A DNA stretch of 64,000 bases from Phyllobates terribilis (lineage: Eukaryota), in NCBI RefSeq assembly GCF_046119375.1, contig NW_027362772.1:250108001-250172000 (forward strand), in the 5' to 3' direction. How positions within the stretch are numbered: the stretch's first letter is position 1; each line of letters begins with the position of its first letter. The notes beneath the pieces are model-generated. The model saw only the letters and a program-made list of their open reading frames with translations, was not told the DNA's origin and searched no databases. Made by a program: the position numbers and the translations under genes. This document shows, in pieces, positions 32,591 to 63,235 of this stretch.

Positions 32591-33780
32591 GAGACACCCG
32601 GAGCCGGATCTGGATAGGGGTAGTAGTCCGTGTGGCGGTGACCCTGTCCGTGCCCAGGGTGGTCAAACTAAGTGTGTGGCAGTCTTTGTAGATGTTGTTT
32701 GAGTGCCGACTACGCCACCCGTTGATTGCGGCTAGGAGGCCGCCGCTGCAGAGCAGACCGCTGAGGCCGGTGGTAGGTTTGTGCAGCAAGGATGGTATAA
32801 CCCCCAACGGGAGGGGTATGGCCTCAGGGCAGCAGATGTGGAAGTTGGTGGTAGTGATGGTGCAGCAAGGAAGCTCAGAGACAGGTGATGCAGTTTCAGG
32901 GTTTTTACTCACAGGTGTTGCTCCGGTCACTCCGGCCTTGAGTGACCACCCGAGCCATGCTGCGTCCACCAGGTGTGGGACTCGGCCAACTCCCAGGCAA
33001 TCCAGAGCGTGGTCCTGAGCTCCCTTCTCTCTCTCTCTCTGCTGGCCGTTCCCACCAGGGATCCACCTTTGTCCGGCTCCCTCGGGCCTCTTGGTGGTAA
33101 AACCTTCTCTGGCTTTCCTGACCCTATTCGTGGTGTGCCTTCCTGGTGGATGTGGTGAGGGTCGTGGCAAAACTTAACCACGACCTCCGGTTCCTGGCTA
33201 AGGATCATTAGCCTCTGCCAGTTAGGGTTCCGGTACCCGTTTCTGCCAACCCTTCACCCTTCTGGTTTACTTCTGGGATCTTAGGGTTCCCTCTTGTCTT
33301 GTGTCTCTGGGCCTTTCTTCCTCCTTCTCTCCACTACAGGCCTGGCCCTGGAGCTGGGCCCAGCCGGAGCCACAGCTCCCTGTCAGCCCTCCTGGCTGAG
33401 CTCCTCTGCTCTGCTCCTCCTCAGTCTGACTGACCCTGTCCTAAGATGGTGCCCACCATATATACTCCCTCTATGTGTGAGCCCAGGTGACTAGCACCCA
33501 ATGGGCTCCTACCTCTATGCCCAGAGTCCCTCCCCTATCTGCCCCTACACTACTGGGATGTTCCTCCCCCCCTCCCACTCCAGCCAGGGACAGACGCTGT
33601 CGTACCTGCACATCTAACTGGTGGGAGTACCGTAGTTCTGTCCCCCGGAAATGGGATGAGTGTAGTGCATGCAGCTGTCTGAGCTCAGTCCCACACTCCA
33701 TCCTTACCCGGGAGTGGAATACCACACCTCTGGAGTGAGGTGCAATACCCCTGTAGCAGCCGAGTCCTCAGGGTGCTACA
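32565..33780 (-). repeat. 5' LTR of the CSD element
   Basis: TGTAGCACCCTGAG ... GGCCCAGGGGGCGCGTCA in element orientation. Confidence 0.95.
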
Positions 33781-34730: not shown

Positions 34731-37561
34731 TAAGGTGTTATGAAGAGTTTTGGAAACGTTTTCATGCAGCCTTTTGATTAAACAGTGCGTAGTTTGGAGT
34801 GGATTCCATCAGGAGATACTTCAAAGTAGTGACATCAGCTTTAATTTTTTCCAACAATAGTTTTTCAAAATCGGAAATGGAAAAAAAAAGCTCTATGTAT
34901 GAACAGACAAGAGGATTAATATTAAACTCTATGGGAAGAATCTTTCAAACAACTTTTCAGGTGATTTTGTGTGGCGTCTTGTGGAACCGATCCGCCCAAA
35001 AAACTCTATCTAGCCAAAAAATAAATCAAAAAGTCATATATACCCCAAAATGCTACCAATGAAAATACCAACTCATTCCGCAAACAGCAAACTCTTCACA
35101 GCTCAACGGGAAAATCAAAAAAATGATATCTCAGAATTTGAGGAAACAAAACTAAATATCTTTTATGCTGTAAATCTATTTTTTTCTGTACCCGTCCAAA
35201 AAAACTAATAAAGATTTTTCAGTATACATACCCCAACATGGTGCCCTGAAAAACATCCTGTCCCAGGATAAAAACCATGTGCCTACATCAAGAGAAAAAT
35301 AAAATAAAGCTATGGCTCTCAGAAAGGTTTTGTGAACGTTGTTGACTAATGATGTGGAATTACAACGGTAAATCTTGTCATATTGGATGGGACTCTACAG
35401 ACCTTCAGGTTCCTATCCTATAATGACCATATTGGGTGCTGTAAGATATGATCTTCTGGAGGAAACCTGTTTTGTGGAGCTGTAAATCATCTGTCGTAAC
35501 AAAATTTACTAAATCATTACGAGGAACATTTCCAATAAAACTGAAGATTCACAATAACTTGTAGGTAAAATAAACTGTCGGAAACCCAACGTATGGACGT
35601 CCAATCTAAGTGTTGGAGAGCTTCAGGTCTTAGCTTTGGATAATGAAGGTTCTTAAATGAAGCCTCCATAACACGTGGAACTACTGTAATAAAAGTACTT
35701 GTCACCCTATTCAGAATCCCAGGAAAGGTCACCGATTTAGCTGACTCCTGAAAGAGTAGACAAATCTCCCGGATCCCACCGAATCATACAGAAAACAGTT
35801 CTACCGTATGGTTTCTTCCATGAATGGAATGAGATGATAGTTGCTGCTCATAAAATTTTATGAAGAAGGGAGGGAAGAGGAGAAACAGACATTATACTGC
35901 AGGTTCCATGGAATATTACGACCCACAACTGTCATCTCCTATCTCAACAATGGAAAAATCTATATTCAGAAAAGACAGATTTTCCCATTACTGAAATAGG
36001 AGATGGCAGACAGTGCTTAAAAGATTTTATGGAGGAGCTAAAGGTAGACACAAACATTCTGCTGCAAGTTCTCCTAAAACCACAGCTACAGTTCTCCATT
36101 GAACTTTATGAGCGCCAACTGTCATCTCCTATCTCAGTAATGGGAAAATTTGTATTTACGGGAGACACATTTTACCTATGAATTGAGTATTTTGAGAATG
36201 AATGATCAATCCAGGAAGAGTAAGAAGCAGATTTCTCTGATAGGATGTGTTACAAAGTTTCTTATTCTTACATGTACTATTGATTTATGAAAACAAATAA
36301 AACAATGGCTACCCTTCAAGCATCGGTTTTAGAGGGTGTGTCTGGTTTAGAAACCTCATTCTGAAAAGTCCTATAAAAAGTTTGATTTCTGAGTGGTTCC
36401 CTATTCAGGACACTTATATATTAGCTAGAGTGGACAATAACTAGAAAAAGTACCTTTTCTGTGCCCATGTTTGACACACAGCTCATTTGTGGCACCCCAG
36501 GGGTCTGGTTTCCACAGTAACAGCAATGTTATGTCTGAGAGCAGGTGGGAGGTCTCTTGGTCAGGAATCCTATGCATGCCACACCTCCTGCCCAGTCCTG
36601 GGAGGGGAAGAACTTCCCCTATATAAACCTGGGGCTGAGGCAGGGTTAGGAAGTTCAGAGGGAGAGTTCAGCCAGGAGGGCTGACAGGGAGCTGTGGCTC
36701 CGGCTGGGCCCAGCTCCTGGGCCATGCCAGAAGTAGAGACAGAGAAGAGAAGCAGCTATGGGAAGAAGCAACAGGAGCTCTGTGGGAGCAGTGTTACAAG
36801 GAGTCAGGGGCTGGCAGCTGCAGAGCTCGCCCTGACTGAGAAGATTTCTTACCGGACCCGGAGTCCGAGGCTGTGGGGACTAACTCCTACCCAGCAGCAG
36901 AATCCGTCAGGCAGGGGATTTCAGGTCCTCTGGCCAAGAAACCCGAAGGCACGGTCACACGCATGGGACCAGCACCGCCGTCGTGGAGCGGAAGCTACTA
37001 GAAGGCCCCGAGTCACCGGCCATACGGGTGAGCACCACACGGTACACTCAGGGACGTGGGCTACTTTTACCCGCCTCTAGCAAGGTAGCCAGAAGAGTAC
37101 AGTTAGCTGGGAAGGCCTACAACTCCACCTGGCCAGGGGAGATCCCATCTGCTCAAGGACTGACCAGGCCCCGATCGCTAGCAAGTACTCCGGGAGGGTC
37201 TATCTTTGTCACCAGTAAAGACCCTGAACTACACGCATCGTCTCTGAGTGGTTCCTGCTACCCCCATCATCCACGTCGGCTGCCCTGAGGCCATACCCCT
37301 CCCGTTGGGGGTTATACCATCCCCGCTGCACCATCTTTCCACCGGCCTCAGCGGTCTGCCCTGCAGCGGCAGCTCCAAAGCTGCATTCAACGGGTGGCGT
37401 AGTCATCCAACATCTACTGCTAGTAGACTCGCCACTTAGTTTGACTCCCTGGGCACGGACCGGGTCACCGCCACGAGACTACTACCCCCATCTGATCCGG
37501 CTCCGGGTAAGCCCCCGTGCACGCGATGCCGCACGACACAGACCCAGGGGTGCGTCAACTT

Positions 37562-37580
37562 TTGGCGTAGTCGGCAGGAT
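37562..37580 (+). promoter_or_regulatory. tRNA-Ser primer-binding site
   Basis: TGGCGTAGTCGGCAGGATT, 4 nt after the LTR; identical to the PBS of the 28899-33780 element. Confidence 0.88.
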
Positions 37581-38017
37581 TTCGTGCCCGCAACCACCGG
37601 GTACTGCGTGCCTGAAAAAGACTGTTCAAACTTACCAGTGGTGAAGATTCCCGCCATTCGTGAAGATTCCCGCCATCCGGCGCCATCTTTTGCCTCCTTC
37701 CCGCCATCGGTGGAGTTTTCCCGCCATCCGGCGCCATCTTCTGCCTTCTTCCCGCCATCCGTGGAGTTTTCCCGCCGTTGGACGCCATCTTGAAGACGCC
37801 GCGCGGGAAGAAGAGGGGCGTGGACTCCGAAGGCGCGCGAGAACTGAAGCCCCGCCTCACGTCCGGACGTTGCGTAAGGTCCTGGAAGGAGCCCAGCAGA
37901 CGCCGACGTCACAGGAGCGCGACGGAAGGTCCTCAACCCTGACGATCCACTGCGGAGCCGCGGCCTACGGAAGAGGATCATCGCAAGGTAGGCCACAGTC
38001 CACTAGGGGGGAGGAAG

Positions 38018-38419
38018 ATGTCGGATACGGAGGAGAGCTTCACTGCCTCAACCCCCGCCAGCGCCAGCGCTGCTGCAGTCATGCCTTTTACCATGCCCTA
38101 TATCCCGGGAGCAGCCTGGCTACCCCAATACTCAGGGGAGTCACATACCCTGAATGACTTTAGTGAAAAGCTGGATAGCCTCTTCCAGGTGTACCCCCTC
38201 ATAGAAGAGCAAAAAGTGAGCATCCTGGTGGCCCAATTAACCGGGGCAGCCCAAAGGGAGGTAAAGTCCTGGCCACCTGGGAGGAGGACTGTCGCAGAGA
38301 TACTAACCCAGCTAACCGAGGAGGAGCTGCAGTACTACCAATACGAGGAAAGCCAAGAGGACCCGGACGGGTCTGAGGACTACCCTCAGGAGGGAGCACA
38401 AAGAGGACATAGCTACTGA
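38018..38419 (+). CDS. Truncated Gag N-terminus (PNMA-like) fused in frame to the acidic tail of the CSD protein
   Basis: WLPQYSGE...FSEKLDSLF...QKVSILVAQLTGAAQREV resembles the start of a Gypsy capsid. It ends LTEEELQYYQYEESQEDPDGSEDYPQEGAQRGHSY*, versus LTEEELRYEGDQEDPDGSENYLQEGAGGHRYH* in the CSD ORF. Confidence 0.7.
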   Translation: MSDTEESFTASTPASASAAAVMPFTMPYIPGAAWLPQYSGESHTLNDFSEKLDSLFQVYPLIEEQKVSILVAQLTGAAQREVKSWPPGRRTVAEILTQLTEEELQYYQYEESQEDPDGSEDYPQEGAQRGHSY

Positions 38420-40022
38420 AGGGAAGTAGCGTGAATAAAGAGCTGTAAATAGTTACCCGTAAGGGTACAAGGACTGCTGCTAATTAAAATATGGTCCCCG
38501 TTGGGATTAGTGAATTGTTCCCCATGTGCCCCTATCTTAAACCAGGCTGAGGACTGTGAGCAGCCATTCCTTATCCCCACTGGCCGAGGTCTGAGAGCGG
38601 CCATATCCTGTAAATAATTATGTGTTTCTAGTAATTTATGGGAGTCTTTGGTGGATTTACCGGAAATCCTTTGTACATGGTTGGAGCGTAACCCAGGAAT
38701 GGACTAAAGACTGTTAAGGACTCGGGGCAGGACAGACCCCTACCTGGTTACCTCTCCCTGTTTTGGTGAAATGGACACCTTGCTTTTCTTCAAAACTGCA
38801 CCCGGTTGCGGACACGCCGTAACCATCTTTATGTGTTTTTCTTATTGTATTATTATTGTTTATACCTTGTTATGTTTTTCTAAAAATATGTTTAGTCCCG
38901 GAGTACTAAATTTCACTAGGGGGGAATGTGGCACCCCAGGGGTCTGGTTTCCACAGTAACAGCAATGTTATGTCTGAGAGCAGGTGGGAGGTCTCTTGGT
39001 CAGGAATCCTATGCATGCCACACCTCCTGCCCAGTCCTGGGAGGGGAAGAACTTCCCCTATATAAACCTGGGGCTGAGGCAGGGTTAGGAAGTTCAGAGG
39101 GAGAGTTCAGCCAGGAGGGCTGACAGGGAGCTGTGGCTCCGGCTGGGCCCAGCTCCTGGGCCATGCCAGAAGTAGAGACAGAGAAGAGAAGCAGCTATGG
39201 GAAGAAACAACAGGAGCTCTGTGGGAGCAGTGTTACAAGGAGTCAGGGGCTGGCAGCTGCAGAGCTCGCCCTGACTGAGAAGATTTCTTACCGGACCCGG
39301 AGTCCGAGGCTGTGGGGACTAACTCCTACCCAGCAGCAGAATCCGTCAGGCAGGGGATTTCAGGTCCTCTGGCCAAGAAACCCGAAGGCACGGTCACACG
39401 CATGGGACCAGCACCGCCGTCGTGGAGCGGAAGCTACTAGAAGGCCCCGAGTCACCGGCCATACGGGTGAGCACCACACGGTACACTCAGGGACGTGGGC
39501 TACTTTTACCCGCCTCTAGCAAGGTAGCCAGAAGAGTACAGTTAGCTGGGAAGGCCTACAACTCCGCCTGGCCAGGGGAGATCCCATCTGCTCAAGGACT
39601 GACCAGGCCCCGATCGCTAGCAAGTACTCCGGGAGGGTCTATCTTTGTCACCAGTAAAGACCCTGAACTACACGCATCGTCTCTGAGTGGTTCCTGCTAC
39701 CCCCATCATCCACGTCGGCTGCCCTGAGGCCATACCCCTCCCGTTGGGGGTTATACCATCCCCGCTGCACCATCCTTCCACCGGCCTCAGCGGTCTGCCC
39801 TGCAGCGGCAGCTCCAAAGCTGCATTCAATGGGTGGCGTAGTCATCCAACATCTACTGCTAGTAGACTCGCCACTTAGTTTGACTCCCTGGGCACGGACC
39901 GGGTCACCGCCACGAGACTACTACCCCCATCTGATCCGGCTCCGGGTAAGCCCCCGTGCACGCGATGCCGCACGACACAGACCCAGGGGTGCGTCACATT
40001 CATTTCCATAGGCACTGCTTTT

Positions 40023-46672: not shown

Positions 46673-46686
46673 TCTATATATATATA

Positions 46687-48078
46687 CACTGCTTAAAAAA
46701 TAAAGGGAACACTCAAATAACACATCCTAGATCTGAATGAATAAAATATTCTCATTGAATACTTTGTTCTGTACAAAGTTGAATGTGCTGACAACAAAAT
46801 CACACAAAAATCATCAATGGAAATCAAACTTATTAACCAATGGAGGCCTGGATTTGGAGTCACCCCCAAAATTCAAGTGGAAAAACACACTACAGGCTGA
46901 TCCAACTTTGATGTAATGTCCTTAAAACAAGTCAAAATGAGGCTCAGTATTGTGTGTGGCCTCCACGTGCCTGTATGCCCTCCCTACAATGCCTAGGCAT
47001 GCTCCTGATGAGGTTGCGGATGGTCTCCTGTGGGATCTCCTCCCAGACCTGGAGTAAAGCATCCGCCAACTCCTGGACAGTCTGTGGTGCAACGTGACGT
47101 TGGTGGATGGAGCGAGACATGATGTCCTAGATGTGCTCAATCGGATTCAGGTCTGGGGAACGGGCGGGTCAGTCCATAGCTTCAATGCCTTCATCTTGCA
47201 GGAACTGCTGACACACTCCAGCCACATGAGGTCTGGCATTGTCCTGCATTAGGAGGAACTCAGGGCCAACCGCCTCCAAGGAGTCTCCAGACTCTGTCAC
47301 GTCTGTCACATGTGCTCAGTGTGAACCTGCTTTCATCTGTGAAGAGCACAGGGCGCCAGTGGCGACTTTGCCAATCCTGGTGTCCTGTGGCAAATGCCAA
47401 GCGTCCTGCATGGTGTTGGGCTGTGAGCACAACCCCCATCTGTGGACGTCGGGCCCTCATACCACCCTCATGGAGTCGGTTTCTAACCGCTTGTGCAGAC
47501 ACATGCACATTTGTGGCCTGCTGGAGGTCATTTTGCAGGGCTCTGGTAGTGCTCCTCCTCTTCCTCCTTGCACAGAGGAGGAGGTAACAGTCCTGCTGCT
47601 GGGTTGTTGCCCTCCTATGGCTCCCTCCACATCTCCTGGTATCCGCTCCATGCTCTGGACACTGTGCTGACAGACAGCTACCCTTCTTGCTACAGCTCTC
47701 ATTGATGTGCCATCCTGGATGAACTGCACTACCTGAGCAACTTCTGTGGGTTGTACTGTAGACACCGCCTCATGCTACTGTACCTCTAGGGGTGAGAGCA
47801 ATGGCAAAATGAAAAAGTGATCAAAACAACAGCTAAAAAGAATGAGAACAGAGAAATGGTCTGTGGTCACCACCTGCAGAACCACTCCTTTATAGGGGGT
47901 ATCTTGCTAATTGCCTATCATTTCTACCAGTTGTCTGTTCCATTTGCACAACAGCAGGAGAAATTGATTCACAATCAGTGTTGCTTCATAATCGGACAAG
48001 TAGATTTCACAGAAGTGTTATTGACTTACAGAGTTACATTGTGTTGTTTAAGTGTTCCCTTTATTTTTTTGAGCAGTG
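46687..48078 (-). mobile_element. Tc1 (DD34E) transposon copy A, internally deleted
   Basis: TIR CACTGC(T/C)(T/C)AAAAAA(A)TAAAGGGAACACT at both ends with TA flanks; transposase fragments ([27 protein letters not shown]) on the minus strand. Confidence 0.92.
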
Positions 48079-48559
48079 TATATTGCAAGGCGGCGTTGTT
48101 CACACCGTGCAGTAAGTGAGGCAGTGACCCAAGCAAGTCCAATATAAACAGCTTTTATTTCAGCAACTCACGGGTTAACAGAAAGTCCTCCGGTTCGCAG
48201 TCGGGTTAACAGAAAGTCTATACACAATGGTTGCCGAGGGCAATGGCCGTGCCGGCCGCTCAGAGCCTGACAGGTGCAGAGCCTTCCCAGGCGTGGGTTC
48301 AGCCACCCTCAGTACTGCTGAGGTTTCCTGCTGTGCTCCTAGCAGGTTCCAACACAGAAAACAACACTAATCCTTAGTGCAGGGTTTTTAAAGGACTTGT
48401 GGCAAGAGCCACTGGAAAACCCAGGTTGGAGGGAGGAGGCCGCCCCACTGCCTCCTGTGACCTCCTCCAAGAAATGAAGGCCCTGCCGGGTTTTACTAAT
48501 CTGCCTTAGCCAGATAGCCTGACCAGGTGAATGCTCACCTTCATTCCTGCATTGCAGCC

Positions 48560-51500
48560 TGTAACATACCTGGCGGCGTCCTTGCATGGTGGTCCATCTC
48601 CCACTGTGCAAGAGCGCGCACTTGATCTCCTGTCCAGAATGTCTCTCTGGCTTCCCTCCATGCTGTCTGTTTGTGTCTGTTTCTGCTGCTTAAGGGCGGC
48701 GCCCGATCACTTCCTGCTTTTTGTACCTGCTGTGGGTCACACCCCTTGTGCGTCCTCAGCCTATTGCTGTCTGTCACTTGGTATATAGCTCAGCAGCTCC
48801 CTTCTATCCCTGCCTGAGCATAGTGTTTCCTTCAGTGTGTGCTTGCACTCTGAAGGTGCCAGGTCCCGTTCTTTGTTTCCTTGTCTGCCTTTCCTGGAGG
48901 CTGTATTTCCAGGCCTGTCTGAACTGAGTCCTGTATGTCTTCTGCTTTGCGGTATCAGCTCCCGTGTCTGAACTGAGTCCTTTCTGTGTTCTCTTGTCTG
49001 TCCTGTCTGAACACGCTCCTAGCCTGTTCCTCCTGCCTTCTAGGGGCCGATTACCTAGACCCGTTCCTGTATCTTGTCTGACCTGTCTGAACACGCTCCT
49101 AGCCTATTCCTCTCGCCTTCTAGTGGCCGATTTCCTAGACCCGCTCCTGTGTCTGGTCTGTCCTGTCTGAACACGCTCCTTGCCTGTTCGCTCCGCCTTC
49201 TAGTGGCCGATTTCCTAGACCCGCTCCTGTGTCTGGTCTGTCCTGTCTGAACACGCTCCTTGCCTGTTCGTTCCGTCTCTCTGGGGGCCGTATTCCCAGA
49301 CCCGCTCCTGTATCCCTCTGCAGTGTCGGTCTCCTCCGTACACTCAGTTCCAGTCTGAACTCTCTCCTGTCCTTTACCTGTTTTGCCTCTATGTCCGTTC
49401 CCTTCCTTTTTCTGCAGAGTCTGAACTCGTACCTAACTCCTGCTTGTTGTCTCTGCAAGTACTGTGTGAGTATCTGGCTCTGTCTTTCCCTTCCTGTCTG
49501 TTCCGTGTGAACAGAGCCCTGTCCTCCCTGCTCAGCCTTGTCTGCACTCTAGCTGTGCTTGCCTGTAACCCTCTGCCTGTATTGTTCCTGAGTCCCGGTG
49601 TGTACTGGGTCCTATCCCGCCTGTGTTCCTACCTGCTAGTGCCTCCCTGTTTGCACTCTAGCTGTGCTTGCCTTTACCCCCCTGCCTGCATACCCGCCTG
49701 CCTGCATACCAGTCGTGCCTGCCTATACCCTCCAGTCTGTGTGCCAGCCTACCAGCCTGTTCCTGTATTCCCCTGTGTGGGTCAACAGCCGTGTCCGGGG
49801 TCTGTCCTGGAGTAGCACCTGGTCCCTCTGCTCGGTTCCTCCTTGGTGCACTGGCGTCGTATGCCGTCGTGCGACCCTGGTCGGATCGGGTGAATACTTA
49901 GTCACGCCCCTCCAGGCATTCACTCTCCGGCACGGTCCAGTGGAATCACTACCAATCACACGCACACGCCGCTTAGCCCGGGCGTGTGCATAACAGCATG
50001 CTCAGGCCATGGTTCCCGTTGAGCCCCACGGCCTTCGCTCTTTGAGAAGTTTTTCCAGCGAATACATGCATTAAAATAAAATAAATAAATTTTTTTCCCC
50101 CTTTAGCTGAGTTCCAGGCGAATTACGCACCCGTCCAGATGGATCTATCAGCCCTCGTTCCTGCGGATCCGCCACGTTACTATGGGGATCCAAGACAGTG
50201 TCGTGCATTTGTGGAGCAATGCATGCTACACTTTAAGGCCTACCCTCTCTATTTTCCTTCCGATTGGGCTAAAGTGGCCTTTATGATTGACTACCTAGCG
50301 GGTGATGCCTTGAAATGGGTCACCCCCCTATGGGAAGCATGGGATCCTGTCATCCTTGACCTGCAGGCCTTCCTGGTGGCCTTTCGTATGGTCTTCGAGG
50401 ACCCTAACTCTGAAGCCCCTGCTGAAGCTTCACTTCCCAATATCCCGGAGCAGCCCCGACGGGTAATGTGTGTGGGTAGCGCAATAGTCCTCCAGCCCAA
50501 TGAGACTACTGCCCACCCAGAATCCTCACAGGGTGACTACGCTTTCCGGAATACTTCTCTCAACCTCAAGAGGCAGTCCAGACGTGCTAGACTTAGAGGC
50601 AAGCCGTCACGCCAGGGTCTGTCCTCCCTGAGACCTCCTGACCCCAACCTTGAAGTCCCTACTGAAGCTTCATCTCCCTGTATCCCGGAGAAACCCCAAT
50701 GGGTAATGTGCGTGGGTAGTGCACCAGTTCTCCTGGCCGAAGAGACTTCTGCCCATCCAGACTCCACACAGGAGAACTTCCTGCACCCGGCATCAGATGC
50801 TTCTTTCTCTTTAACCGGTGTGCATGTCCAAGGATGCTCCAAAGCTGTGGTTACCTCAGAGTCTGTGCACCTCTACTACCTGGCGGAGGATCCCCTGTTG
50901 CCTCCTGAACCCTCCGGGATACCACTCGATGACAAATGGAGAGAGACTTCTCTACACCCGGTACTCAATACTTTGTCCGCTTCGTCCTGTGAGCCTGACA
51001 ATGGGTACCCCAAAGTGGTAGTTACCTCCGAGTCTCTACACCCCTCCGACCAGGCGGAGGATCTCCAGTTGTCTCCTGAACCCTTCGGGGTGCTACCTGG
51101 TAGCGAAAGGACAGAGACTCTCCTATACTCTGTACCTGATACCTCGCTCGCTTCGTCCAGTGAGTCCAACTTAGTGTACTCCGAAGCAGAGGTTACTCCT
51201 GAGTCTCTACACCCCTCCGACCAGGCGGAGGACCTCCAGTTGTGTTCAGAATCCTTCGGGGTGCCACCTGGTGGTGAATGGACAGAGACTTTCCTATATC
51301 CTGGATCTGATACCTCGCTTGCTTCGTCCAGTGAGTCCGACCTAGTGTACTCTGAAGCAGAGGTTACCCGTGAGTCTCTACACCCCTCTGACCAGGCGGA
51401 GGACCGCCAGCTGTCTCCAGAACCCTTCGGGGTGCCACCTGGTGGTGAATGGACAGAGATTTTCCTATACTCGGTACCCGATACCTCGCCTGCTTCCTCC

Positions 51501-53421
51501 AGTGAGTCCGACCTAGTGTACTCTGAAGCAGAGGTTACCCGTGAGTCTCTACACCCCTCTGACCAGGCGGAGGTCCGCCAGCTGTCTCCAGAACCCTTCG
51601 GGGTGCCACCTGGTGGTGAATGGACAGAGACTTTCCTATACTCGGTACCCGATACCTCGCCTGCTTCCTCCAGTGAGTCCGACCTAGTGTACTCTGAAGC
51701 AGTTGTTTTCTCTGAGCCTCTGCACTCTTCTGACCCGGCGGAGGACCTCCAGTTGTTTCCTGAATCCTCCGGGATACCACCAGATAACAAAGAGACAGTG
51801 ACTTTTCCTCATTATGTACCTGATAACCCGTCTATTTCTTCCTGTGAGCTTGACAAGATGTACCTCGAAGCAGAGATTACCCTTAAGTCTCTGTCCCCCT
51901 CCAACCCAGTGAACGACTGGTCCTCGAATTCCCTGCGGAAGATTCTGGCAGGCCTGAAGAAGAGGGGGCGTAAGGGGGGAGGTACTGTAACATACCTGGC
52001 GGCGTCCTTGCATGGTGGTCCATCTCCCACTGTGCAAGAGCGCGCACTTGATCTCCTGTCCAGAATGTCTCTCTGGCTTCCCTCCATGCTGTCTGTTTGT
52101 GTCTGTTTCTGCTGCTTAAGGGCGGCGCCCGATCACTTCCTGCTTTTTGTACCTGCTGTGGGTCACACCCCTTGTGCGTCCTCAGCCTATTGCTGTCTGT
52201 CACTTGGTATATAGCTCAGCAGCTCCCTTCTATCCCTGCCTGAGCATAGTGTTTCCTTCAGTGTGTGCTTGCACTCTGAAGGTGCCAGGTCCCGTTCTTT
52301 GTTTCCTTGTCTGCCTTTCCTGGAGGCTGTATTTCCAGGCCTGTCTGAACTGAGTCCTGTATGTCTTCTGCTTTGCGGTATCAGCTCCCGTGTCTGAACT
52401 GAGTCCTTTCTGTGTTCTCTTGTCTGTCCTGTCTGAACACGCTCCTAGCCTGTTCCTCCTGCCTTCTAGGGGCCGATTACCTAGACCCGTTCCTGTATCT
52501 TGTCTGACCTGTCTGAACACGCTCCTAGCCTGTTCCTCTCGCCTTCTAGTGGCCGATTTCCTAGACCCGTTCCTGTGTCTGGTCTGTCCTGTCTGAACAC
52601 GCTCCTTGCCTGTTCGCTCCGCCTTCTAGTGGCCGATTTCCTAGACCCGCTCCTGTGTCTGGTCTGTCCTGTCTGAACACGCTCCTTGCCTGTTCGTTCC
52701 GTCTCTCTGGGGGCCGTATTCCCAGACCCGCTCCTGTATCCCTCTGCAGTGTCGGTCTCCTCCGTACACTCAGTTCCAGTCTGAACTCTCTCCTGTCCTT
52801 TACCTGTTTTGCCTCTATGTCCGTTCCCTTCCTTTTTCTGCAGAGTCTGAACTCGTACCTAACTCCTGCTTGTTGTCTCTGCAAGTACTGTGTGAGTATC
52901 TGGCTCTGTCTTTCCCTTCCTGTCTGTTCCGTGTGAACAGAGCCCTGTCCTCCCTGCTCAGCCTTGTCTGCACTCTAGCTGTGCTTGCCTGTAACCCTCT
53001 GCCTGTATTGTTCCTGAGTCCCGGTGTGTACTGGGTCCTATCCCGCCTGTGTTCCTACCTGCTAGTGCCTCCCTGTTTGCACTCTAGCTGTGCTTGCCTT
53101 TACCCCCCTGCCTGCATACCCGCCTGCCTGCATACCAGTCGTGCCTGCCTATACCCTCCAGTCTGTGTGCCAGCCTACCAGCCTGTTCCTGTATTCCCCT
53201 GTGTGGGTCAACAGCCGTGTCCGGGGTCTGTCCTGGAGTAGCACCTGGTCCCTCTGCTCGGTTCCTCCTTGGTGCACTGGCGTCGTATGCCGTCGTGCGA
53301 CCCTGGTCGGATCGGGTGAATACTTAGTCACGCCCCTCCAGGCATTCACTCTCCGGCACGGTCCAGTGGAATCACTACCAATCACACGCACACGCCGCTT
53401 AGCCCGGGCGTGTGCATAACA
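48560..53421 (+). mobile_element. Pol-less chromovirus (sushi-group) derivative
   Basis: 1436-bp LTRs (48560-49995, 51986-53421), almost identical; 5-bp TSD CAGCC at 48555-48559 and 53422-53426; self-priming-type PBS; PPT; LTRs hold an 80-bp x4 array. Confidence 0.93.
50139..52214 (+). CDS. Gag capsid N-terminal domain followed by acidic 57-aa tandem repeats
   Basis: PPRYYGDPRQCRAFVEQCMLHF...KVAFMIDYLAGDALKW aligns by eye with gag at 21874. 171-bp repeat period (50859, 51030, 51201, 51372, 51543, 51714, 51885). Ends KILAGLKKRGRKGGGTV, like the pol C-terminus, and reads into the LTR. Confidence 0.82.
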   Translation: MDLSALVPADPPRYYGDPRQCRAFVEQCMLHFKAYPLYFPSDWAKVAFMIDYLAGDALKWVTPLWEAWDPVILDLQAFLVAFRMVFEDPNSEAPAEASLPNIPEQPRRVMCVGSAIVLQPNETTAHPESSQGDYAFRNTSLNLKRQSRRARLRGKPSRQGLSSLRPPDPNLEVPTEASSPCIPEKPQWVMCVGSAPVLLAEETSAHPDSTQENFLHPASDASFSLTGVHVQGCSKAVVTSESVHLYYLAEDPLLPPEPSGIPLDDKWRETSLHPVLNTLSASSCEPDNGYPKVVVTSESLHPSDQAEDLQLSPEPFGVLPGSERTETLLYSVPDTSLASSSESNLVYSEAEVTPESLHPSDQAEDLQLCSESFGVPPGGEWTETFLYPGSDTSLASSSESDLVYSEAEVTRESLHPSDQAEDRQLSPEPFGVPPGGEWTEIFLYSVPDTSPASSSESDLVYSEAEVTRESLHPSDQAEVRQLSPEPFGVPPGGEWTETFLYSVPDTSPASSSESDLVYSEAVVFSEPLHSSDPAEDLQLFPESSGIPPDNKETVTFPHYVPDNPSISSCELDKMYLEAEITLKSLSPSNPVNDWSSNSLRKILAGLKKRGRKGGGTVTYLAASLHGGPSPTVQERALDLLSRMSLWLPSMLSVCVCFCCLRAAPDHFLLFVPAVGHTPCASSAYCCLSLGI

Positions 53422-53530
53422 CAGCCGCAGCTGTGTCTGTGACTGCAATACACTCCAATGGATTTAATAGGTCTCTGTACACATTCTGGGGGAGATATAA
53501 CGTCCCTCGTATACGATCCCGGTCACTGCC

Positions 53531-53560
<30 letters not shown>

Positions 53561-53561
<1 letters not shown>

Positions 53562-54634
53562 GTGACACCCCAGGGGTCTGGTTGCCACAGTGATAGAGAT
53601 ATTACGTCTGAGAGCAGGTGGGGGGTCTCTTGGTCAGGAATCCTATGCATGCCACACCTCCTGCCCAGTCCTGGGAGGGGAAGAACTTCCCCTATATAAA
53701 CCTGGGGCTGAGGCAGGGTTAGGGAGTTCAGAGGGAGAGTTCAGCCAGGAGGGCTGACAGGGAGCTGTGGCTCCGGCTGGGCCCAGCTCCTGGGCCATGC
53801 CAGAAGTAGAGACAGAGAAGAGAAGCAACTATGGGAAGAAACAACAGGAGCTCTGTGGGAGCAGTGTTACAAGGAGTCAGGGGCTGGCAGCTGCAGAGCT
53901 CGCCCTGACTGAGAAGATTTCTTACCGGACCCGGAGTCCGAGGCTGTGGGGACTAACTCCTACCCAGCAGCAGAATCCGTCAGGCAGGGGATTTCAGGTC
54001 CTCTGGCCAAGAAACCCGAAGGCACTGTCACACGCATGGGACCAGCACCGCCGTCGTGGAGCGGAAGCTACTAGAAGGCCCCGAGTCACCGGCCATACGG
54101 GTGAGCACCACACGGTACACTCAGGGACGTGGGCTACTTATACCCGCCTCTAGCAAGGTAGCCAGAAGAGTACAGTCAGTTTGGGAGGCCTACAACTCCG
54201 CCTGGCCAGGGGAGATCCCATCTGCTCAAGGACTGACCAGGCCCCGATCGCTAGCCAGTACTCCGGGAGGGTCTATCTTTATCACCAGTAAAGACCCTGA
54301 ATTACACCGCATCGTCTCTGAGTGATTCCTGCTACCCCCATCATCCACTTCGGCTGCCCTGAGGCCATACCCCTCCCGTTGGGGGTTATACCATCCCCGC
54401 TGCACCATCCTTCCACCGGCCTCAGCGGTCTGCCCTGCAGCGGCAGCTCCAAAGCTGCATTCAACGGGTGGCGTAGTCATCCAACATCTACTGCTAATAG
54501 ACTCGCCACTTAGTTTGACTCTCTGGGCACGGACCGGGTCACCGCCACGAGACTACTACCCCTATCTGATCCGGCTCCGGGTAAGCCCCCGTGCACGCGA
54601 TGCCGCACGACACAGAAGGCCCAGGGGCGCATCA
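53561..54634 (+). mobile_element. Solo LTR (1074 bp), same family as the 36488 element LTRs, inserted in (TA)n
   Basis: High similarity to 36488-37557; TG...CA; flanked by TATA repeats. Confidence 0.92.
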
Positions 54635-54679
<45 letters not shown>

Positions 54680-54680
<1 letters not shown>

Positions 54681-56267
54681 TGCTCAAAAAAATAAAGGGA
54701 ACACTCAAATAACACATCCTAGATCTGAATGAATGATATATTCTCATTGAATACTTTGTTCTTTACAAAGTTGAATGTGCTAACAACAAAATCACACAAA
54801 AATCATCAATGGAAATCAAACTTATTAACCAATGGAGGCCTGGATTTGGAGTCACCCCCAAAATTAAAGTGGAAAACACACTACAGGCTGATCCAACTTT
54901 GATGTAATGTCCTTGTGACTTGTTTTAATGAGGCTCAGTATTGTGTGTGGCCTCCACGTGCCTGTATGACCTCCCTACAATGCCTGGGCATGCTCCTGAT
55001 GAGGTTGCGGATGGTCTCCTGTGGGATCTCCTTCCAGACCTGGACTAAAGCATCCGCCAACTCCTGGACAGTCTGTGGTGCAATGTGACGTTGGTGGATG
55101 GAGCGAGACATGATGTCCCAGATGTGCTCAATTGGATTCAGGTCTGGGGAAAGGGAGGGCCAGTCCATAGCTTCAATACCTTCATCTTGCAGGAACTGCT
55201 GACACACTCCAGCCACATGAGGTCTGGCATTGTCCTGCATTAGGAGGAACCCAGGGCCAACCGCACCTGCATATGGTCTCACAAGGGGTCTGAGGATCTC
55301 ATCTCGGTACCTAATGGCAGTCAGGCTACCTCTGGCAAGCACATGGAGGGCTGTGCGGCCCTCCAAAGAAATGCCACCCCACACCATTACTGACCCACTG
55401 CCAAACCGGTCATGCTGAAGGATGTTGCAGGCAGCAGATCGCTATCCATGGCATCTCCAGACTCTGTCACGTCTGTCACATGTGCTCAGTGTGAACCTGC
55501 TTTCATCTGTGAAGAGCACAGGGCGCCAGTGGCGACTTTGCTAATCCTGGTGTTCTGTGGCAAATGCCAAGCGTCCTGCACGGTGTTGGGCTGTGAGCAC
55601 AACCCCCATCTGTGGACGTCGGGCGCTCATACCACCCTCATGGAGTCGGTTTCTAACCGTTTGTGCAGACACATGCACATTTGTGGCCTGCTGGAGGTCA
55701 TTTTGCAGGGCTCTGGCAGTGCTTCTCCTGTTCCTCCTTGAACAAAGGCAGAGGTAGCGGTCCTGCTGCTGGATTGTTGCCCTCCTACGGCCCCCTCCAC
55801 GTCTCCTGGTGTACTGGCCTGTCTCCTGGTAGCGCCTCCAGCCCCTGGACACTACTCTGACAGACACAGCAAACATTCTTGCCACAGCTCGCATTGATGT
55901 GCCATCTTGGAGGAGATCCCACAGGAGACCATCCGCAACCTCATCAGGAGCATGCCTAGGTGTTGTAGGGAGGTCATACAGGCACGTGGAGGCCACACAC
56001 AATACTGAGCCTCATTTTGACTTGTTTTAAGGACATTACATCAAAGTTGGATCAGCCTGTAGTGTGTTTTTCCACTTTAATTTTGGGGGTGACTCCAAAT
56101 CCAGGTTCTCCATTGGTTAATAAATTTGATTTCCATTGATGATTTTTGTGTGATTTTGTTGTCAGCACATTCAACTTTGTACAGAACAAAGTATTCCATG
56201 AGAATATTTAATTCATTTAGATCTAGGATGTGTTATTTGAGTGTTCCCTTTATTTTTTTGAGCAATG
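54680..56267 (-). mobile_element. Tc1 (DD34E) copy B with a rearranged right end (about 355-bp inverted arms)
   Basis: Same TIR as copy A. Transposase 54935-55903 has two TAG stops and lacks its N-terminus. 55912-56267 is an inverted copy of 54680-55031. Confidence 0.88.
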
Positions 56268-56271
56268 TATA

Positions 56272-59200
56272 TGACGCGCCCCCTGGGCCGTGGGAGTACT
56301 CGGCAGCCGGGCCTCTGCGTATGCCGGTGGGGGATATCACGGTGGCTGGCCCGGTCCGTGACCCAGCGCGGTCAGTAAAAAGGGGAATTTATAGGGGATT
56401 TGGAAAGTTCGTGATGCCACCTGTGGAATGCGGCAAAAGGGGTGCCGCCACTGCGGAGCAGTCCTCTGGAGCGGGTGTTACGGCAGCAGGGATGGTGTGG
56501 CTCTCCACAGGTAGAGCTAGCTCCAGGGCAGCGTGGGGTGTAATGGACGATGCTGGGGAGAGACGGCAGGATGGTCCCGGAGGAAAGGCGGACACTCACA
56601 TGGGGGTAAGCTTCAGTACTTTTACTGGTGATGGTGCAGGCACGGTCCAGGGTACTCTGGGTGAAGGGTGCACTTTTGGACTCTCCCCAGTGAGCGGGTA
56701 TAGGGCCTCCTGATCGGTGGCTTTTCTCGCTAAGCTTCTGGCCTGCCTGGAACTAGGCCTAGCTTGGTTACTGTCTCTCTCTCCCTTGCACCTGCTGACT
56801 TGGTGGTAGGGCCTTCTCTTTGGAGATCACTCTCCCTGGACACTGGGGCCTCCGTGACTCCTAGCCCTGGTACTGTAGTCAGCGTTTGGCAAACCTGGGA
56901 CCTGTAGTTCTCCAGGGGTTCCGGTAGTCCCTACTGGGTGTAAAGAGTCCCTGTAGGCGCGGACGCGGTGTCCGGTATATATCTCGGGGTGAGCCTGGTA
57001 TGCTCCTCTGCCCCCCTTGTTACTTCTTCCTTCTCTTCTCGCCTTCGGCCACACTTAAGGCCCTCACTAGACTTAACCTCGTGCTGTAGGCTTTGGCTCG
57101 CCTCTTCACTGCTCTCTGAGCATCAGCATGCTCTCAGCTCACTCTGAGCTCTGTTCCTCTCTGAACACTAAACTGAAACTAACTGAGCTGCCTGGCTCCA
57201 CCCTCCCTATATATATCCCTAACGGGCTCCCTCTGCTGGTCTGAGGTGGTAGGGTGGAGGTGTGTGAATGTGTGAGGGCCTCTTGTGGAGAAGTCCATCC
57301 ACGCACCCTTCTGGGTTCTGTGGCACCAGTGCGTAGCAGGGCGCCACATTCCCCCCTAGTAAAACTCAGTACTCCTGGATTGAAGCATTTTTCTCAAAAC
57401 AGGTTAAACAATAACATCTTTTCTTCCCTTTATGGGAGGCACTTTGCTTGAACGTTACAGGTAACAACAATAACAAGTATAATAATTATAATAACATTAA
57501 AGTTACAGCAAGTCCCATAACCTGGTGTCCATTTCACCGATGAAGGAACATGAGGGACCCACCTGAAAACCCTCAACCTAGGCCCTGGGCGTGGCTACAG
57601 GGCATAGGTGATCCAGGTGCTGGACCACGTCTTCTGCCACGCCAAATGGGTTTTTGTTCCGTGGTCACTTAAGGGGCACTCCAGGGAGTGCAACTATGTA
57701 CATGAACAGTTTTTGGGCTGCTCACAGTCCTCAGCCACCGAGTCCTTTATATATACCCTTACGGGTTGCTAAATAAACACATATATTTCAGTTTATGCAA
57801 TAAACATTATGCAATACCCTACTGGGTAACTATTTATACTGCAGGTATTTTTTTTTTAACTTACTCGTTATACCTGACAGGGGTCTGGCCTTTCGTGCTA
57901 CTCGATGACCTACGCAGTACAGGGATGCATGTAGTGTGGATGCTTGCGCTATTTTCCGCTCTATGTGTTGGTGGACTGCAAGACTGCCTTAACCTCTCTA
58001 CGGGATTGGCAAGTACACTGGTTACTGGGCCTACTGGCTCTGCTTCTACCGGTGATCCTTCTTCCGGGGATTCTTCATGAGCAGGCTCTTCCGGGGCACT
58101 TTCAGGTCTTACTTGCAGTGGAGAGTCTTCTGGCTGTTGGTAGAACTGTAGCACAGGTATTATTACCGCTCCATCCAGTTGAGACCAATCTACCGGGAAA
58201 TCTCCTAAGTCAGTATGGAGTACTTCTTTAGGCTCCTCCGGTACGGTGAGAGGCACTTCCTCCTGGGGCTTAAGCGGACTTGGGCACAACTTCAGATGGT
58301 CTCTTGATACCGTTGCAGTTGTTCTTCCTCCGCCTTTGCTAATTAGACAGGTTTTCCTATTATCAAATCTGGAATTCAACACAGTGTAAGGTTCTCTTTC
58401 CCACTGGTCGTCAAGTTTATGGCTTCTTCTCTTTCATTTCAGCACAACTTCTCCAGGTGTCAAGGGTTCGGCTGGTGCACTCTTGTTGTACTGTGCTTCC
58501 TGCTTATCTCTCACCCTACTTAGACTGTCTTCGACACAGGCCTGTACTTTCTTGTACTGCTCCTGTCGAGTCGTATCCCAGTCTTCAGTGGACATATCTG
58601 CTTCTGGCTCTACCACTCCAAGCTCCAGGTCCATGGGCAACTTTCCGGGTCTTGCTCTCATGAGGTACTCTGGAGTACAATTGGTGGAACTCACAGGTAT
58701 GTGATTGTACAGATCTACCAGGTCAGGTAGTTTGTCTGGCCACTGGTTTCTTCCTTCTAGAGGTAAGGTCTTCAACAGGTCGATGACTATGTTATTCATC
58801 TTTTCACATAACCCATTGGTTTGGGGGTGGTACCTTGTAGTCCGGATCTTCTTACACCCGTACAGATGGCAAAACTCCTTGAACAGCTCGGCTTCAAAGG
58901 CAGGGTCTTGATCCGTCAGCACCTCTTCCGGGTATCCATGGGGCCTGCAGAAGTACGCTTGAAACGTCTTTGCTACAGTTTCTGCCATCAGATCCTTGAC
59001 GGGGGCTACCACCAGGAACCGGGAGTAGTGATCCACCATGGTCAGGGCATACAAGTAGCCTGACCTGCTGGGTGACAGCTTGATGTGATCCAGAGCGACG
59101 ATCTCCAGGGGCTGGGTTGTCTTGATGGACTGCAGGGGTGCCTTCTGGATGCTGTAGTCTTTTCTTCTGAGGCTACAGGGTCCACAATCCCGGCACCACC

Positions 59201-61590
59201 TCTCTATGGAACTCCGCATTCCAACACAATAAAACCGATTCTTCAGGAGGGTTTCCAGCTTCTTCCAGCCAAAGTGCCCTGCTTGATCATGGTAGGCCTC
59301 CAACACCATCTGGATGTCTGTCCTTGGCACTACGATCTGCCATACCATCTCATGGGTCTTAGGGTTGACATACCTTCCGCACAGCTTCTCTCTATAGATG
59401 AACAGCCGGCTTCTCTCATTCCATAGTTGCTTGGCTTGGGGAGGAGCGTCCTTCTCAAGGGAGGAACCTTCCTGGGTTATCAGTTCTTTGATACGGCTGA
59501 TAACTGGGTCGCTGTCCTGGGTCTCCTTCCAACTGTGATGAGGTAAAGGGTTTAGCGTCTTACCACGATACCTCCGGGAGGTGCGCTGCTCGTGGACCAT
59601 CCCATTTCTGTGGAAGGCAGGTAGCTCAATCTCCTCCAGGTCATTCACTTCTTCTTCAGTAGCCGACTGGTGCGGCATTCTGGATAGGGCATCGACGTTG
59701 GCGTTCTAGTGGCCTGCCCAGTACTTGATGGTGAACTGATAGTTTGACAGCCGGGCCATCCAACGCTGTTCAATGGCTCCCAACTTGGCTGTCTCTAGAT
59801 GTGTCAAGGGGTTGTTGTCAGTGTAAGCCGTGAACTTACTGGAGGCCAAGTAGTGCTTGAATCGTTCAGTGATGGCCCAGACCAAGGCCAGGAACTCCAA
59901 CTTGAAGGAGTTATAGTTTTCCGGATTCCTCTCGGTCGGACGAAGCTTCCTGCTAGCATAGGCAATCACCTTCTCCTTGCCATTCTGCTTCTGACTCAAC
60001 ACAGCTCCTAGTCCCTCATTGCTGGCATCAGTGTACAGCAGGAAAGGTTGGCTGTAGTCAGGGTAGGCCAGGATTTCTTTGCCAGTCAGGATCTCTTTCA
60101 TCACTGCAAAGGACTCAGCCTGCTCTTTACCCCACTGGAAGGGGGGGGGGTTGCCTCTGTTGGACTGTCCTACCAGGAGATCTTGCAAAGGCTCTGCCTT
60201 CTTGGTGTAGTCCTTTACAAATCTCGGGTAATACCCGACCAGTCCCAAGAACTGACGTACCTCCTTGAGATCCTTCGGTTTCTTCCATTTCTGGATGGCA
60301 GTGACCTTCTCCGGGTCTGGTGCTACTCCTTCTGGATTAACGATGTGCCACAGGTACTGAACCTTCTGTTTGAGCAGGTGGCACTTGGAAGGCTTCAACT
60401 TCATCCCATACCGGGACAACGACTCAAATACCTCCGCTAGGTGCTTCAAATGGTCCTCATACGTCTTGGAGTACACTATCACGTCATCCAGGTATAGCAG
60501 CACGGTCTCGAAGTTACGGTGTCCCAAACAGCACTCTATCAATCTCTGGAACGTTCCAGGGGCGTTGCAGAGTCCGAACGGCATACTGTTGAACTCGCAG
60601 AGTCCCATCGGGGTAGTGAAGGCCGTCTTCTCCCAGTCCTCCTCAGCAACTGCTACTTGCCAGTACCCACTAGTGAGGTCAAGGGTAGAGAAGTAATTTG
60701 CGACTTTAGTGCAGCCAGGGATTCCTCGATACGGGGCAAAGGGTATGCATCTTTATGTGTTATGCGATTAATCTGTCTGTAATCTACACACTTCCTCATG
60801 CTTCCATCCTTTTTCCTGACCAGGACCAGGGGAGCTGCCCAGGTGCTACAGCTATCTCTTATTACCCCTGCCTTCCTCATGTTATGCAGCATTTCCTTCG
60901 CTTTCTGGTAGTGTGCTAGTGGTATGGGCCTGTAACGTTCTTTGATGGGTGGATGGTCACCTGTGGGTATATGGTGTTGTACCCCTTTAATCCTCCCGAA
61001 ATCAAGTGGGTGTTTGCTGAATACCTGTTCGTATTCCTGAACCACCCTGTATACACCTTGTTTCTGATGGACAGGAGTGGCGTCAGTCCCAACATAAAGC
61101 TGTTGGCAAACCTGGGACCTGTAGTTCTCCAGGGGTTTCGGTAGTCCCTACTGGGTGTAAAGAGTCCCTGTAGGCGCGGACCCGGTGTCCGGTATATATC
61201 TCGGGGTGAGCCTGGTATGCTCCTCTGCCCCCCTTGCTACTTCTTCCTTCTCCTCTCACCTTCGGCCACACTTAAGGCCCTCACTAGACTTAACCTCGTG
61301 CTGTAGGCCTTGGCTCGCCTAAGTACCGCAGCCAGTGTGCTGCCTCTTCGCTGCTCTCTGAGCATCAGCACGCTCTCAGCTCACTCTGAGCTCTGTTCCT
61401 CTCTGAACACTAAACTGAAACTAACTGAGCTGCCTGGCTCCACCCTCTCTATATATATCCCTAACGGGCTCCCTCTGCTGGTCTGAGGTGGTAGGGTGGA
61501 GGTGTGTGAGTGTGTGAGGGCCTCTTGTGGAGAAGTCCATCCATGCACCCTTCTGGGTTCTGTGGCACCAGTGCGTAGCAGGGCGCCACA
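56272..61590 (-). mobile_element. Gypsy LTR retrotransposon (pol-encoding type), defective: gag, protease, PBS and half of the 5' LTR deleted
   Basis: 3' LTR 56272-57348; truncated 5' LTR about 61103-61590; TSD TATA; PPT at 57349-57360; RT-RNase H-integrase order. Confidence 0.92.
57861..61101 (-). pseudogene. pol: Frameshifted pol: RT (YLDD), RNase H, integrase
   Basis: WAAPLVLVRKKDGSMRKCVDYR; MPFGLCNAPGTFQRL..YLDD; YTDASNEGLGAVL; HDQAGH..CGPC; LDHI...TDQ...TNGLCE. Split over ORFs 60653-61045, 59706-60608, 58434-59678 and 57861-58382. Confidence 0.92.

Positions 61591-61614: not shown

Positions 61615-63235
<1,621 letters not shown>

What the first reader, a model, noticed from the sequence alone, without database searches (positions are those of the whole stretch)
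48560..53421. Pol-less chromovirus derivative encoding half a capsid plus an expanded acidic 57-aa repeat
Seen: an intact 691-codon ORF with a roughly 90-aa sushi capsid N-terminal domain, two roughly 240-bp-spaced repeats (50398, 50638), about seven 171-bp in-frame repeats rich in S/E/P/D, and the last residues of pol. LTRs are nearly identical. All repeat periods are multiples of three. Established: mammalian sushi-derived RTL/Mart genes such as RTL8 and LDOC1 also retain mainly this capsid half. Inference: a still-mobile satellite making a capsid-decoy or co-assembling protein, which could be a parasite tool, a dominant-negative regulator or a precursor to domestication.
Basis: partly seen in the sequence, partly recalled or inferred. 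Interest (0 to 1): 0.7.

Follow-up and report, generated by a model that had tools for sequence, protein, structure and literature searches.

The report
Mobile half-capsid retrotransposon satellite
A young, highly repeated jumping element, probably from a frog, has lost its copying enzymes but keeps one long reading frame for half a capsid protein plus an acidic repeat tail, so it may show how half-capsid genes like those of mammals can arise inside a still-mobile parasite.

Summary
48560-53421 is a young, pol-less Tf1/sushi chromovirus derivative. It has 1436-bp LTRs that differ at 2 sites, a 5-bp target duplication, an intact self-priming site and a PPT. One public DNA run gave 31,029 contigs on it. 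The 691-codon ORF encodes a capsid N-lobe, a 133-bp duplication 240 bp apart, 6.7 acidic 57-aa repeats, the last 19 pol residues, and 75 codons of U3 that end in the TATA box.

Selection is split. The N-lobe keeps its fold-defining residues, well above neutral-decay controls. The repeats drift at the amino-acid level (omega 1.10) but carry no stop and no net frameshift, where about 21 frameshifts are expected. So the frame and the N-lobe are maintained; the repeat sequence is not.

Most likely (inferred): translation benefits each copy in cis. The nascent N-lobe would dock its own mRNA onto helper capsids, and read-through to U3 would avoid nonsense-mediated decay. A trans-acting decoy fits a multi-copy family less well. 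Expression is only hinted at.

Pol-less Gag elements (TR-GAG, Xenopus 1a11) and half-capsid host genes (RTL8, LDOC1) are known; I found no report of this combination. New variant; interest 0.5.

The parts
48555..48559 (+). 5-bp target-site duplication, left copy
   Evidence: CAGCC on both flanks
48560..49995 (+). 5' LTR, 1436 bp, TG...CA, A-poor, with an 80-bp x4 array at 48992-49314
48782..48788 (+). TATA box of the 5' LTR (inferred promoter)
   Evidence: TATATA at 48782, 30 nt before the self-priming segment; same spacing in the intact neighbour
48812..48821 (+). Inferred transcript 5' end; self-primer complementary to the PBS
   Evidence: 10-nt exact reverse complement of 49998-50007
49998..50007 (+). 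Self-priming primer-binding site (Tf1/sushi type)
   Evidence: same arrangement in the intact element
50009..50074 (+). Ancestral gag start codon, heading a 21-codon upstream ORF in this copy
   Evidence: aligns with the gag start of the intact element; translation
50070..50106 (+). A/T tract and splice-acceptor-like site; poorly matched by sibling contigs
   Evidence: sequence; DNA-run depth 9,000-33,000 at 50078-50099 against 202,000 at 50042 and 471,000 at 50130; crude acceptor ranking
50139..52214 (+). 691-codon ORF (75 kDa, pI 4.5)
50139..50435 (+). Capsid N-lobe (about aa 7-99); no C-lobe or zinc knuckle follows
   Evidence: PF16297 E 5.6e-8; Gag profile matches positions 67-174 of 317 only; AlphaFold pLDDT 86.6; aligns to N-lobes of dArc1 (Z 9.3) and Ty3 (Z 8.2)
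50400..50772 (+). 133-bp duplication spaced 240 bp, starting in the Gag inter-lobe linker; basic patch between the copies
50772..51920 (+). 6.7 in-frame 171-bp (57-aa) acidic S/E/P/D repeats, disordered by composition
51100..51909 (+). Possible in-frame intron (810 nt, GT..AG) that would remove most repeats
   Evidence: one contig in run X12 (RNA by guess), none in the DNA run in that row; weak donor, good acceptor by a crude ranking
51933..51985 (+). Remnant of the pol 3' end, including the polypurine tract
   Evidence: 83% nt identity over 47 bp to the intact element
51986..53421 (+). 3' LTR; the ORF reads 75 codons into U3 and stops in the TATA box at 52208-52214
53422..53426 (+). Target-site duplication, right copy

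Best explanation
A non-autonomous Tf1/sushi chromovirus that is copied in trans by the Gag and Pol of an intact relative. SHOWN: young LTRs, intact cis-signals, no pol, many diverged siblings, a conserved capsid N-lobe, and a frame kept free of stops and net frameshifts while the repeat residues drift. INFERRED: such a frame survives in a multi-copy parasite only if translating it helps the copy that carries it. The N-lobe leaves the ribosome first and binds helper Gag, as RTL8 binds PEG10. The roughly 600 downstream codons keep it tethered to its own mRNA and so deliver that RNA to assembling particles. The acidic disordered spacer needs length, solubility and perhaps charge, but no exact sequence. 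Reading through to the U3 TATA box also leaves a short 3' UTR, which should spare the genomic RNA from nonsense-mediated decay. I put the descriptive part (satellite, selected frame, constrained N-lobe) at about 0.8 and the cis-docking mechanism at about 0.4.
For: Mobility: 2 differences in 1436 bp, TSD, PBS, PPT; 31,029 contigs laid from one DNA run, with holders in two organisms. N-lobe: all 9 near-invariant residues kept; 111.6 bits equals the median of 74 held-out Gag lobes; 1000 neutral-decay controls at the same identity reach at most 71.2 bits and 1 of 1000 keeps all 9 residues; at 0.115 substitutions per site, half the in-element duplication distance, 0.5% of 400 controls reach its score. 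Frame: P(no stop in the repeats) 0.02-0.07; every whole unit is exactly 171 bp, against about 21 frameshifts expected from control pairs; 8 of 12 listed sibling indels lie before the ORF, and of the 4 inside it two cancel. Repeat residues are free: omega 1.10. Acidity is weakly kept: P 0.001-0.08 by root. Precedent: N-lobe-only RTL8 binds the PEG10 N-lobe and enters its particles (PMC11684626, abstract and discussion); long retroviral 3' UTRs are NMD-prone (PMC2925335, abstract).
Against: No protein or RNA of this copy is shown. Six upstream AUGs precede the ORF, including the ancestral gag AUG in a good context, so this copy may translate the ORF poorly. The N-lobe has a long branch (1.02 against a median tip of 0.26), which means relaxed constraint or an unsampled parent. 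Part of its conservation may date from its time as an autonomous Gag, or from recombination with a helper. The scoring profile came from hits to this very sequence, which inflates its score. In-frame joints among siblings (7 of 8 in the ORF) are not clearly above the LTR control (4 of 8). The indel controls are mostly genomic decay, not reverse-transcription errors. RTL8 lowers particle yield, which would hurt a satellite that depends on those particles.
Confidence: 0.45

Rival explanations
1. RNA-level only: the frame is kept open so that the genomic RNA escapes nonsense-mediated decay. The protein is a by-product and the N-lobe is a slowly decaying relic.
For: Repeats are neutral in sequence but stop-free; the stop lies in the U3 TATA box, as in the intact neighbour; long N-lobe branch.
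Against: N-lobe changes avoid the conserved sites; acidity seems weakly kept; a 21-codon upstream ORF already precedes the frame; deleting the middle would be a simpler way to shorten the 3' UTR than growing repeats (inference).
Confidence: 0.2
2. Trans-acting decoy: the protein poisons or throttles helper capsids like RTL8 or Ty1 p22, limiting copy number or handicapping competing families.
For: Same lobe as RTL8, no C-lobe or zinc knuckle; RTL8 and Ty1 p22 precedents (PMC11684626 discussion); a bulky acidic tail could block lattice closure (inference).
Against: A trans effect gives no advantage to the copy that encodes it, so broken copies should spread; the family is abundant and young, which fits exploitation better than restraint.
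Confidence: 0.15
3. No function: an in-frame gag-to-pol deletion was filled by tandem duplication of a stop-free unit, and the frame is open by inheritance.
For: omega 1.10; sibling substitutions match neutral expectation; a stop-free unit stays stop-free when duplicated; the stop test alone is marginal (0.02-0.07); U3 is open by chance in 14% of shuffles.
Against: Units differ by up to 60 of 171 nt yet show no net frameshift, where controls give 45 non-triplet indels per 305 substitutions; N-lobe tests.
Confidence: 0.12
4. Host-selected, incipient domesticated gene of the RTL8/LDOC1 kind.
For: The architecture resembles mammalian half-capsid genes with disordered flanks (PMC10516033 section 8).
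Against: This copy is a very recent insertion with all cis-signals in a high-copy family; nothing points to a fixed orthologous locus.
Confidence: 0.05

Closest known systems
Tf1/sushi (vertebrate chromovirus) LTR retrotransposons, e.g. the intact element at 20671-27118 and Ranitomeya/Mixophyes Gag proteins
   Same: TG...CA LTRs, 5-bp TSD, self-priming PBS, PPT, sushi-type N-lobe (51% identity), pol tail, frame running through U3 to the TATA box
   Different: No C-lobe, zinc knuckle, protease, RT, RNase H, integrase or chromodomain; LTRs not alignable with the neighbour, so the neighbour is probably not the helper
Xenopus laevis 1a11 (and xretpos)
   Same: Frog, LTR-bounded, no pol; 1a11 encodes a 71-kDa protein with Gag similarity and is expressed in embryos (PMC4585706 discussion; PMC3337140 passages); this ORF is 75 kDa
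   Different: 1a11 is described there as likely non-transposing with 20-30 ORF copies; I could not see its sequence or original paper, so a shared architecture is neither shown nor excluded
Plant TR-GAG elements and wheat RLG_Sabrina/WHAM
   Same: Active pol-less LTR elements with one Gag-derived ORF; some Sabrina variants swap Gag for unrelated short ORFs (PMC4350172 abstract; PMC9744471 passages)
   Different: They keep a Gag precursor (with or without protease), thought to supply particles; this one keeps only the N-lobe, which should not build a particle alone (RTL8 cannot), plus an acidic repeat
Mammalian RTL8/LDOC1 half-capsid genes; yeast Ty1 p22
   Same: A single capsid lobe from a retrotransposon; RTL8 is the same N-lobe and binds the full capsid (PMC11684626; PMC10516033 section 8)
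   Different: RTL8 and LDOC1 are fixed host genes whose truncation is dated to soon after gene birth; p22 is the C-lobe made from inside an intact gag; this is a mobile multi-copy element

Membership tests
Tf1/sushi chromovirus | TG...CA LTRs, 5-bp TSD, PPT | tested here: met
Tf1/sushi chromovirus | Self-priming PBS complementary to the transcript 5' end (PMC6317226 passages) | tested here: met
   10-nt complement 30 nt after TATA, as in the intact neighbour
Tf1/sushi chromovirus | Sushi-type Gag sequence | tested here: met
   PF16297; best hits are frog Gags; groups weakly (83/69) with them
Tf1/sushi chromovirus (autonomous) | pol with PR-RT-RH-IN and chromodomain | tested here: not met
   only the last 19 residues remain; it is a non-autonomous derivative
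TR-GAG / Gag-only non-autonomous LTR elements | LTR element with one ORF and no pol | tested here: met
TR-GAG / Gag-only non-autonomous LTR elements | ORF encodes a whole Gag precursor | tested here: not met
   Gag profile matches positions 67-174 of 317 only, in six frames
RTL8/LDOC1 half-capsid genes | Capsid N-lobe only, fold intact | tested here: met
RTL8/LDOC1 half-capsid genes | Fixed host gene, no longer mobile | tested here: not met
   near-identical LTRs and TSD; 31,029 contigs in one DNA run
RTL8/LDOC1 half-capsid genes | Binds the N-lobe of a full-length capsid | not tested
Xenopus 1a11 family | Pol-less frog LTR element with a Gag-like ORF of about 70 kDa | tested here: met
   75.2 kDa against 71 kDa; the host being a frog is inferred
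Xenopus 1a11 family | Sequence homology to 1a11 | not testable with these tools
   original paper not held; no 1a11 sequence was returned by any search

The most novel reading that the evidence does not exclude
A class of satellite retrotransposon that uses a half capsid as a cis-acting boarding pass: the nascent N-lobe, on a long acidic leash, docks its own mRNA into helper particles. If so, the half-capsid-plus-disordered-tail design of RTL8/LDOC1-type genes can evolve and be selected in mobile parasites before any host domestication.
Probability: 0.3. Interest if true: 0.8.

Novelty: new variant of a known kind. Interest (0 to 1): 0.5.

Why it matters
Mammalian half-capsid genes are thought to have been truncated soon after domestication (PMC10516033, section 8). 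A living, high-copy vertebrate element that already carries only this lobe offers another route: truncation first, in a parasite, and capture later. Its many copies make that testable by population genetics. It is also a clear case of selection on a reading frame without selection on most of its residues, which bears on how non-autonomous LTR elements win packaging and survive RNA surveillance.

Tried and rejected
No whole genome is held, so copy number and per-copy ORF integrity were not counted; contig depth is not a copy number. No RNA holder listed on record; the three small runs laid are one guessed RNA and two of unknown kind. Complex prediction of the N-lobe with a Gag capsid was not available, so there is no verdict. 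Relatives of the repeats: none in three word-based protein searches (one search also missed known Gag relatives, so these blanks are weak), none among the best 150 of 1170 HMMER hits, whose best stretches all fall within query residues 2-144, none in metagenome contigs or the protein atlas. A scan of those hits for N-lobe-only proteins printed 18 rows without a long acidic tail and then stopped on an error after P0148. No Rfam match. No PDB sequence match; the Foldseek E-values were all above 0.5. The single-sequence fold of the whole ORF was uninformative (mean pLDDT 36). Rejected: pairwise dN/dS below 1 among repeats as a sign of constraint, because the five control frames gave 0.65-0.83 against 0.68 and a codon model gave omega 1.10. 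Rejected: C-lobe remnants after the N-lobe (no profile match). Not shown: descent of the 171-bp unit from the 240-bp duplication (best E 0.63). The splice-site ranking used recalled, approximate frequencies and is only a rough guide. No earlier scan findings.
Full report
OBSERVATION. The element spans 48560-53421. Its LTRs are 1436 bp, end TG...CA, differ at 2 sites (0.14%) and are flanked by CAGCC on both sides. A 10-nt stretch just after the 5' LTR (49998-50007) is the exact reverse complement of 48812-48821, which lies 30 nt after a TATA box. The intact chromovirus at 20671-27118 has the same arrangement. Self-priming is the described mode of Tf1/sushi elements (PMC6317226, passages seen). 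A purine tract precedes the 3' LTR. The ORF 50139-52214 has 691 codons; over its 616 internal codons the six frames hold 0, 16, 50, 27, 21 and 10 stops.

ANATOMY. Residues 11-99 match the neighbour's Gag at 51% and residues 599-617 match its pol end. A profile of 100 Gag proteins matches only positions 67-174 of 317 in any frame, so the C-lobe and zinc knuckle are gone; Pfam finds only DUF4939 in the ORF, against a full gag-pol set in the neighbour. AlphaFold with 60 sequences gives a confident helical lobe (pLDDT 86.6). It aligns with the N-lobes of dArc1 (Z 9.3, rmsd 2.4 over 75 residues), Ty3 (8.2) and PNMA2 (7.5), and about as well with Ty1 C-lobes (8.1-8.7); position in Gag, not fold, makes it the N-lobe. 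Then come a 133-bp duplication spaced 240 bp that starts in the Gag linker, and 6.7 units of 171 bp, 46% S/E/P/D, net charge -57, on the disordered side of the charge-hydropathy line. The frame runs 75 codons into U3 and stops in the TATA box; the neighbour's pol does the same. Shuffled U3 is open 14% and 35% of the time, so this may be chance. The ATG homologous to the gag start (50009) heads 21 codons only, and six AUGs precede the ORF in the inferred transcript. The named best Gag hits are amphibian (Ranitomeya, Mixophyes, caecilians; 10 of 150 looked up), so the host is inferred to be a frog.

FAMILY. No genome is held. Twenty of 24 listed runs, from 5 studies and two organisms, hold at least half of the internal words. 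I laid four of them on 48789-52214. DNA run X2 gave 31,029 contigs, and all four runs cover all 30 bins. This shows a large, diversified family but gives no copy number. Of 31 indels, 12 are listed: 8 lie before the ORF; of the 4 inside it, two cancel and two are single contigs of X12, one of them in the U3 tail. Of 271 substitutions, 40 are listed and 29 fall in the ORF: 9 synonymous, 20 non-synonymous, 0 stops, against 29% and 3% expected at random. Among listed joints (15 of 56 in one table, 12 of 35 in the other), 7 of 8 inside the ORF keep the frame and 4 of 8 in the LTR are multiples of three. I dropped two repeat rows of one LTR joint and the wrap-around joints; two ORF rows may be one event and several have unknown inserted letters, so this contrast is weak. 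One X12 contig skips 51100-51909 with GT..AG ends, in frame, and the DNA run shows none in that row. That is a hint of transcription and of splicing that removes most repeats; X12 is RNA only by guess.

SELECTION. Repeats: a codon model gives omega 1.10, no better than omega 1, and control frames give the same pN/pS. Yet neutral simulation along the unit tree leaves all units stop-free in only 2-7% of runs. All six whole units are exactly 171 bp although they differ by up to 60 nt. Thirteen control pairs in the window give 45 non-triplet indels per 305 substitutions; the nine low-divergence pairs I kept give 13 per 154, or about 21 expected here. The aligner did place four cancelling 1-nt gaps between units 1 and 2 and one gap between 6 and 7, but the amino-acid register holds through unit 7. 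Most controls reflect genomic decay; the element's own 80-bp LTR array gives 3 gaps per 19 substitutions. Net acidity is higher than neutral drift predicts (P 0.001-0.08 by root), a test biased by rooting on tips. N-lobe: all 9 near-invariant residues are kept; its 111.6 bits equal the median of 74 held-out Gag lobes; neutral decay to the same identity (43 of 79) gives a median of 39 and a maximum of 71 in 1000 runs; decay for half the duplication distance reaches it in 0.5% of 400 runs. Against this: its branch is long (1.02 against a median tip of 0.26), its real parent is unsampled, and the profile was built from hits to this sequence.

MECHANISM. Shown: mobile satellite, conserved N-lobe, open frame, free residues. 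Inferred: in a multi-copy family selection sees what helps a copy's own replication, so the benefit should be in cis. I favour a boarding-pass model. The N-lobe emerges first, binds helper Gag while still tied to its mRNA by some 600 codons of spacer, and brings that RNA to the particle; read-through to U3 also avoids a long NMD-prone 3' UTR (PMC2925335, abstract seen). N-lobe-only RTL8 binds the PEG10 N-lobe and is built into its particles but lowers their yield (PMC11684626, abstract and discussion seen), which supports docking and also feeds the decoy rival. Rivals: NMD avoidance alone (0.2), trans decoy (0.15), no function (0.12), domestication (0.05).

KNOWN SYSTEMS. Pol-less Gag-only LTR elements are known in plants (TR-GAG, PMC4350172 abstract; wheat Sabrina/WHAM, PMC9744471 passages) and frogs (Xenopus 1a11, a 71-kDa Gag-like ORF, PMC4585706 discussion; PMC3337140 passages). 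Half-capsid host genes are known in mammals, with truncation placed soon after gene birth (PMC10516033 section 8 and passages). It fails membership of TR-GAG (no whole Gag) and of RTL8/LDOC1 (still mobile). Ten paper searches (listings and abstract starts seen) showed no mobile N-lobe-only element with an acidic repeat. The library lacks most subscription papers and Repbase, and 1a11 could not be compared, so prior description is not excluded. The repeats have no relative in any protein search.

VERDICT. Real and more than chance; a new variant of non-autonomous LTR retrotransposon. The frame and the N-lobe look selected, the repeat residues do not, and function is untested. Interest 0.5; 0.8 if the cis-docking model holds (probability 0.3).

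Noticed in passing
window 20671-27118 (+): Intact chromovirus with gag, overlapping pol (PR, RT, RNase H, IN, SH3, chromodomain), self-priming PBS and LTR arrays of 99, 45 and 11 bp; its 3' LTR is shorter than the 5' one; its pol frame runs through U3 and stops in the TATA box.
   Followed up: partly
window 28899-33780 (-): Another young pol-less LTR element (1216-bp LTRs, 99.7% identical, GATG-type flank repeat). It holds one 653-codon stop-free frame (30701-32662) that is Pro/Ala-rich and ends in a cold-shock nucleic-acid-binding domain (PF00313, E 6.5e-7). A non-autonomous element with a CSD protein deserves its own look.
   Followed up: partly
window 36488-39996 (+), with a related solo LTR at 53560-54637: Young pol-less LTR element (1070-bp LTRs, 99.6%) related to the 28899 element (71-77% nt). 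Its 158-codon frame 37943-38419 looks by eye like a short Gag-like piece joined to the same acidic tail as the CSD ORF; no Pfam match. Possibly a second truncated-capsid satellite; untested.
   Followed up: partly
window 48812-49995: If transcription starts at 48812, R/U5 is about 1.18 kb, strongly A-poor (AT skew about -0.4 to -0.5) and holds only three AUGs; summed contig depth on the LTR is far above that on the ORF in the three small runs, much more than in the DNA run.
   Followed up: partly
window 52060-52150 (ORF aa 642-671): The U3-derived tail holds a Cys-rich, moderately hydrophobic stretch (19-residue hydropathy up to 1.75); it could anchor the protein to membranes or be incidental.
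   Followed up: no
window 982-6968, 46675-48100, 54666-56272, 57861-61147, 62093-63019: Neighbouring repeats recognised by eye from translations: two LINE-like RT elements, several Tc1-like transposase fragments, and a broken Gypsy pol on the minus strand.
   Followed up: no
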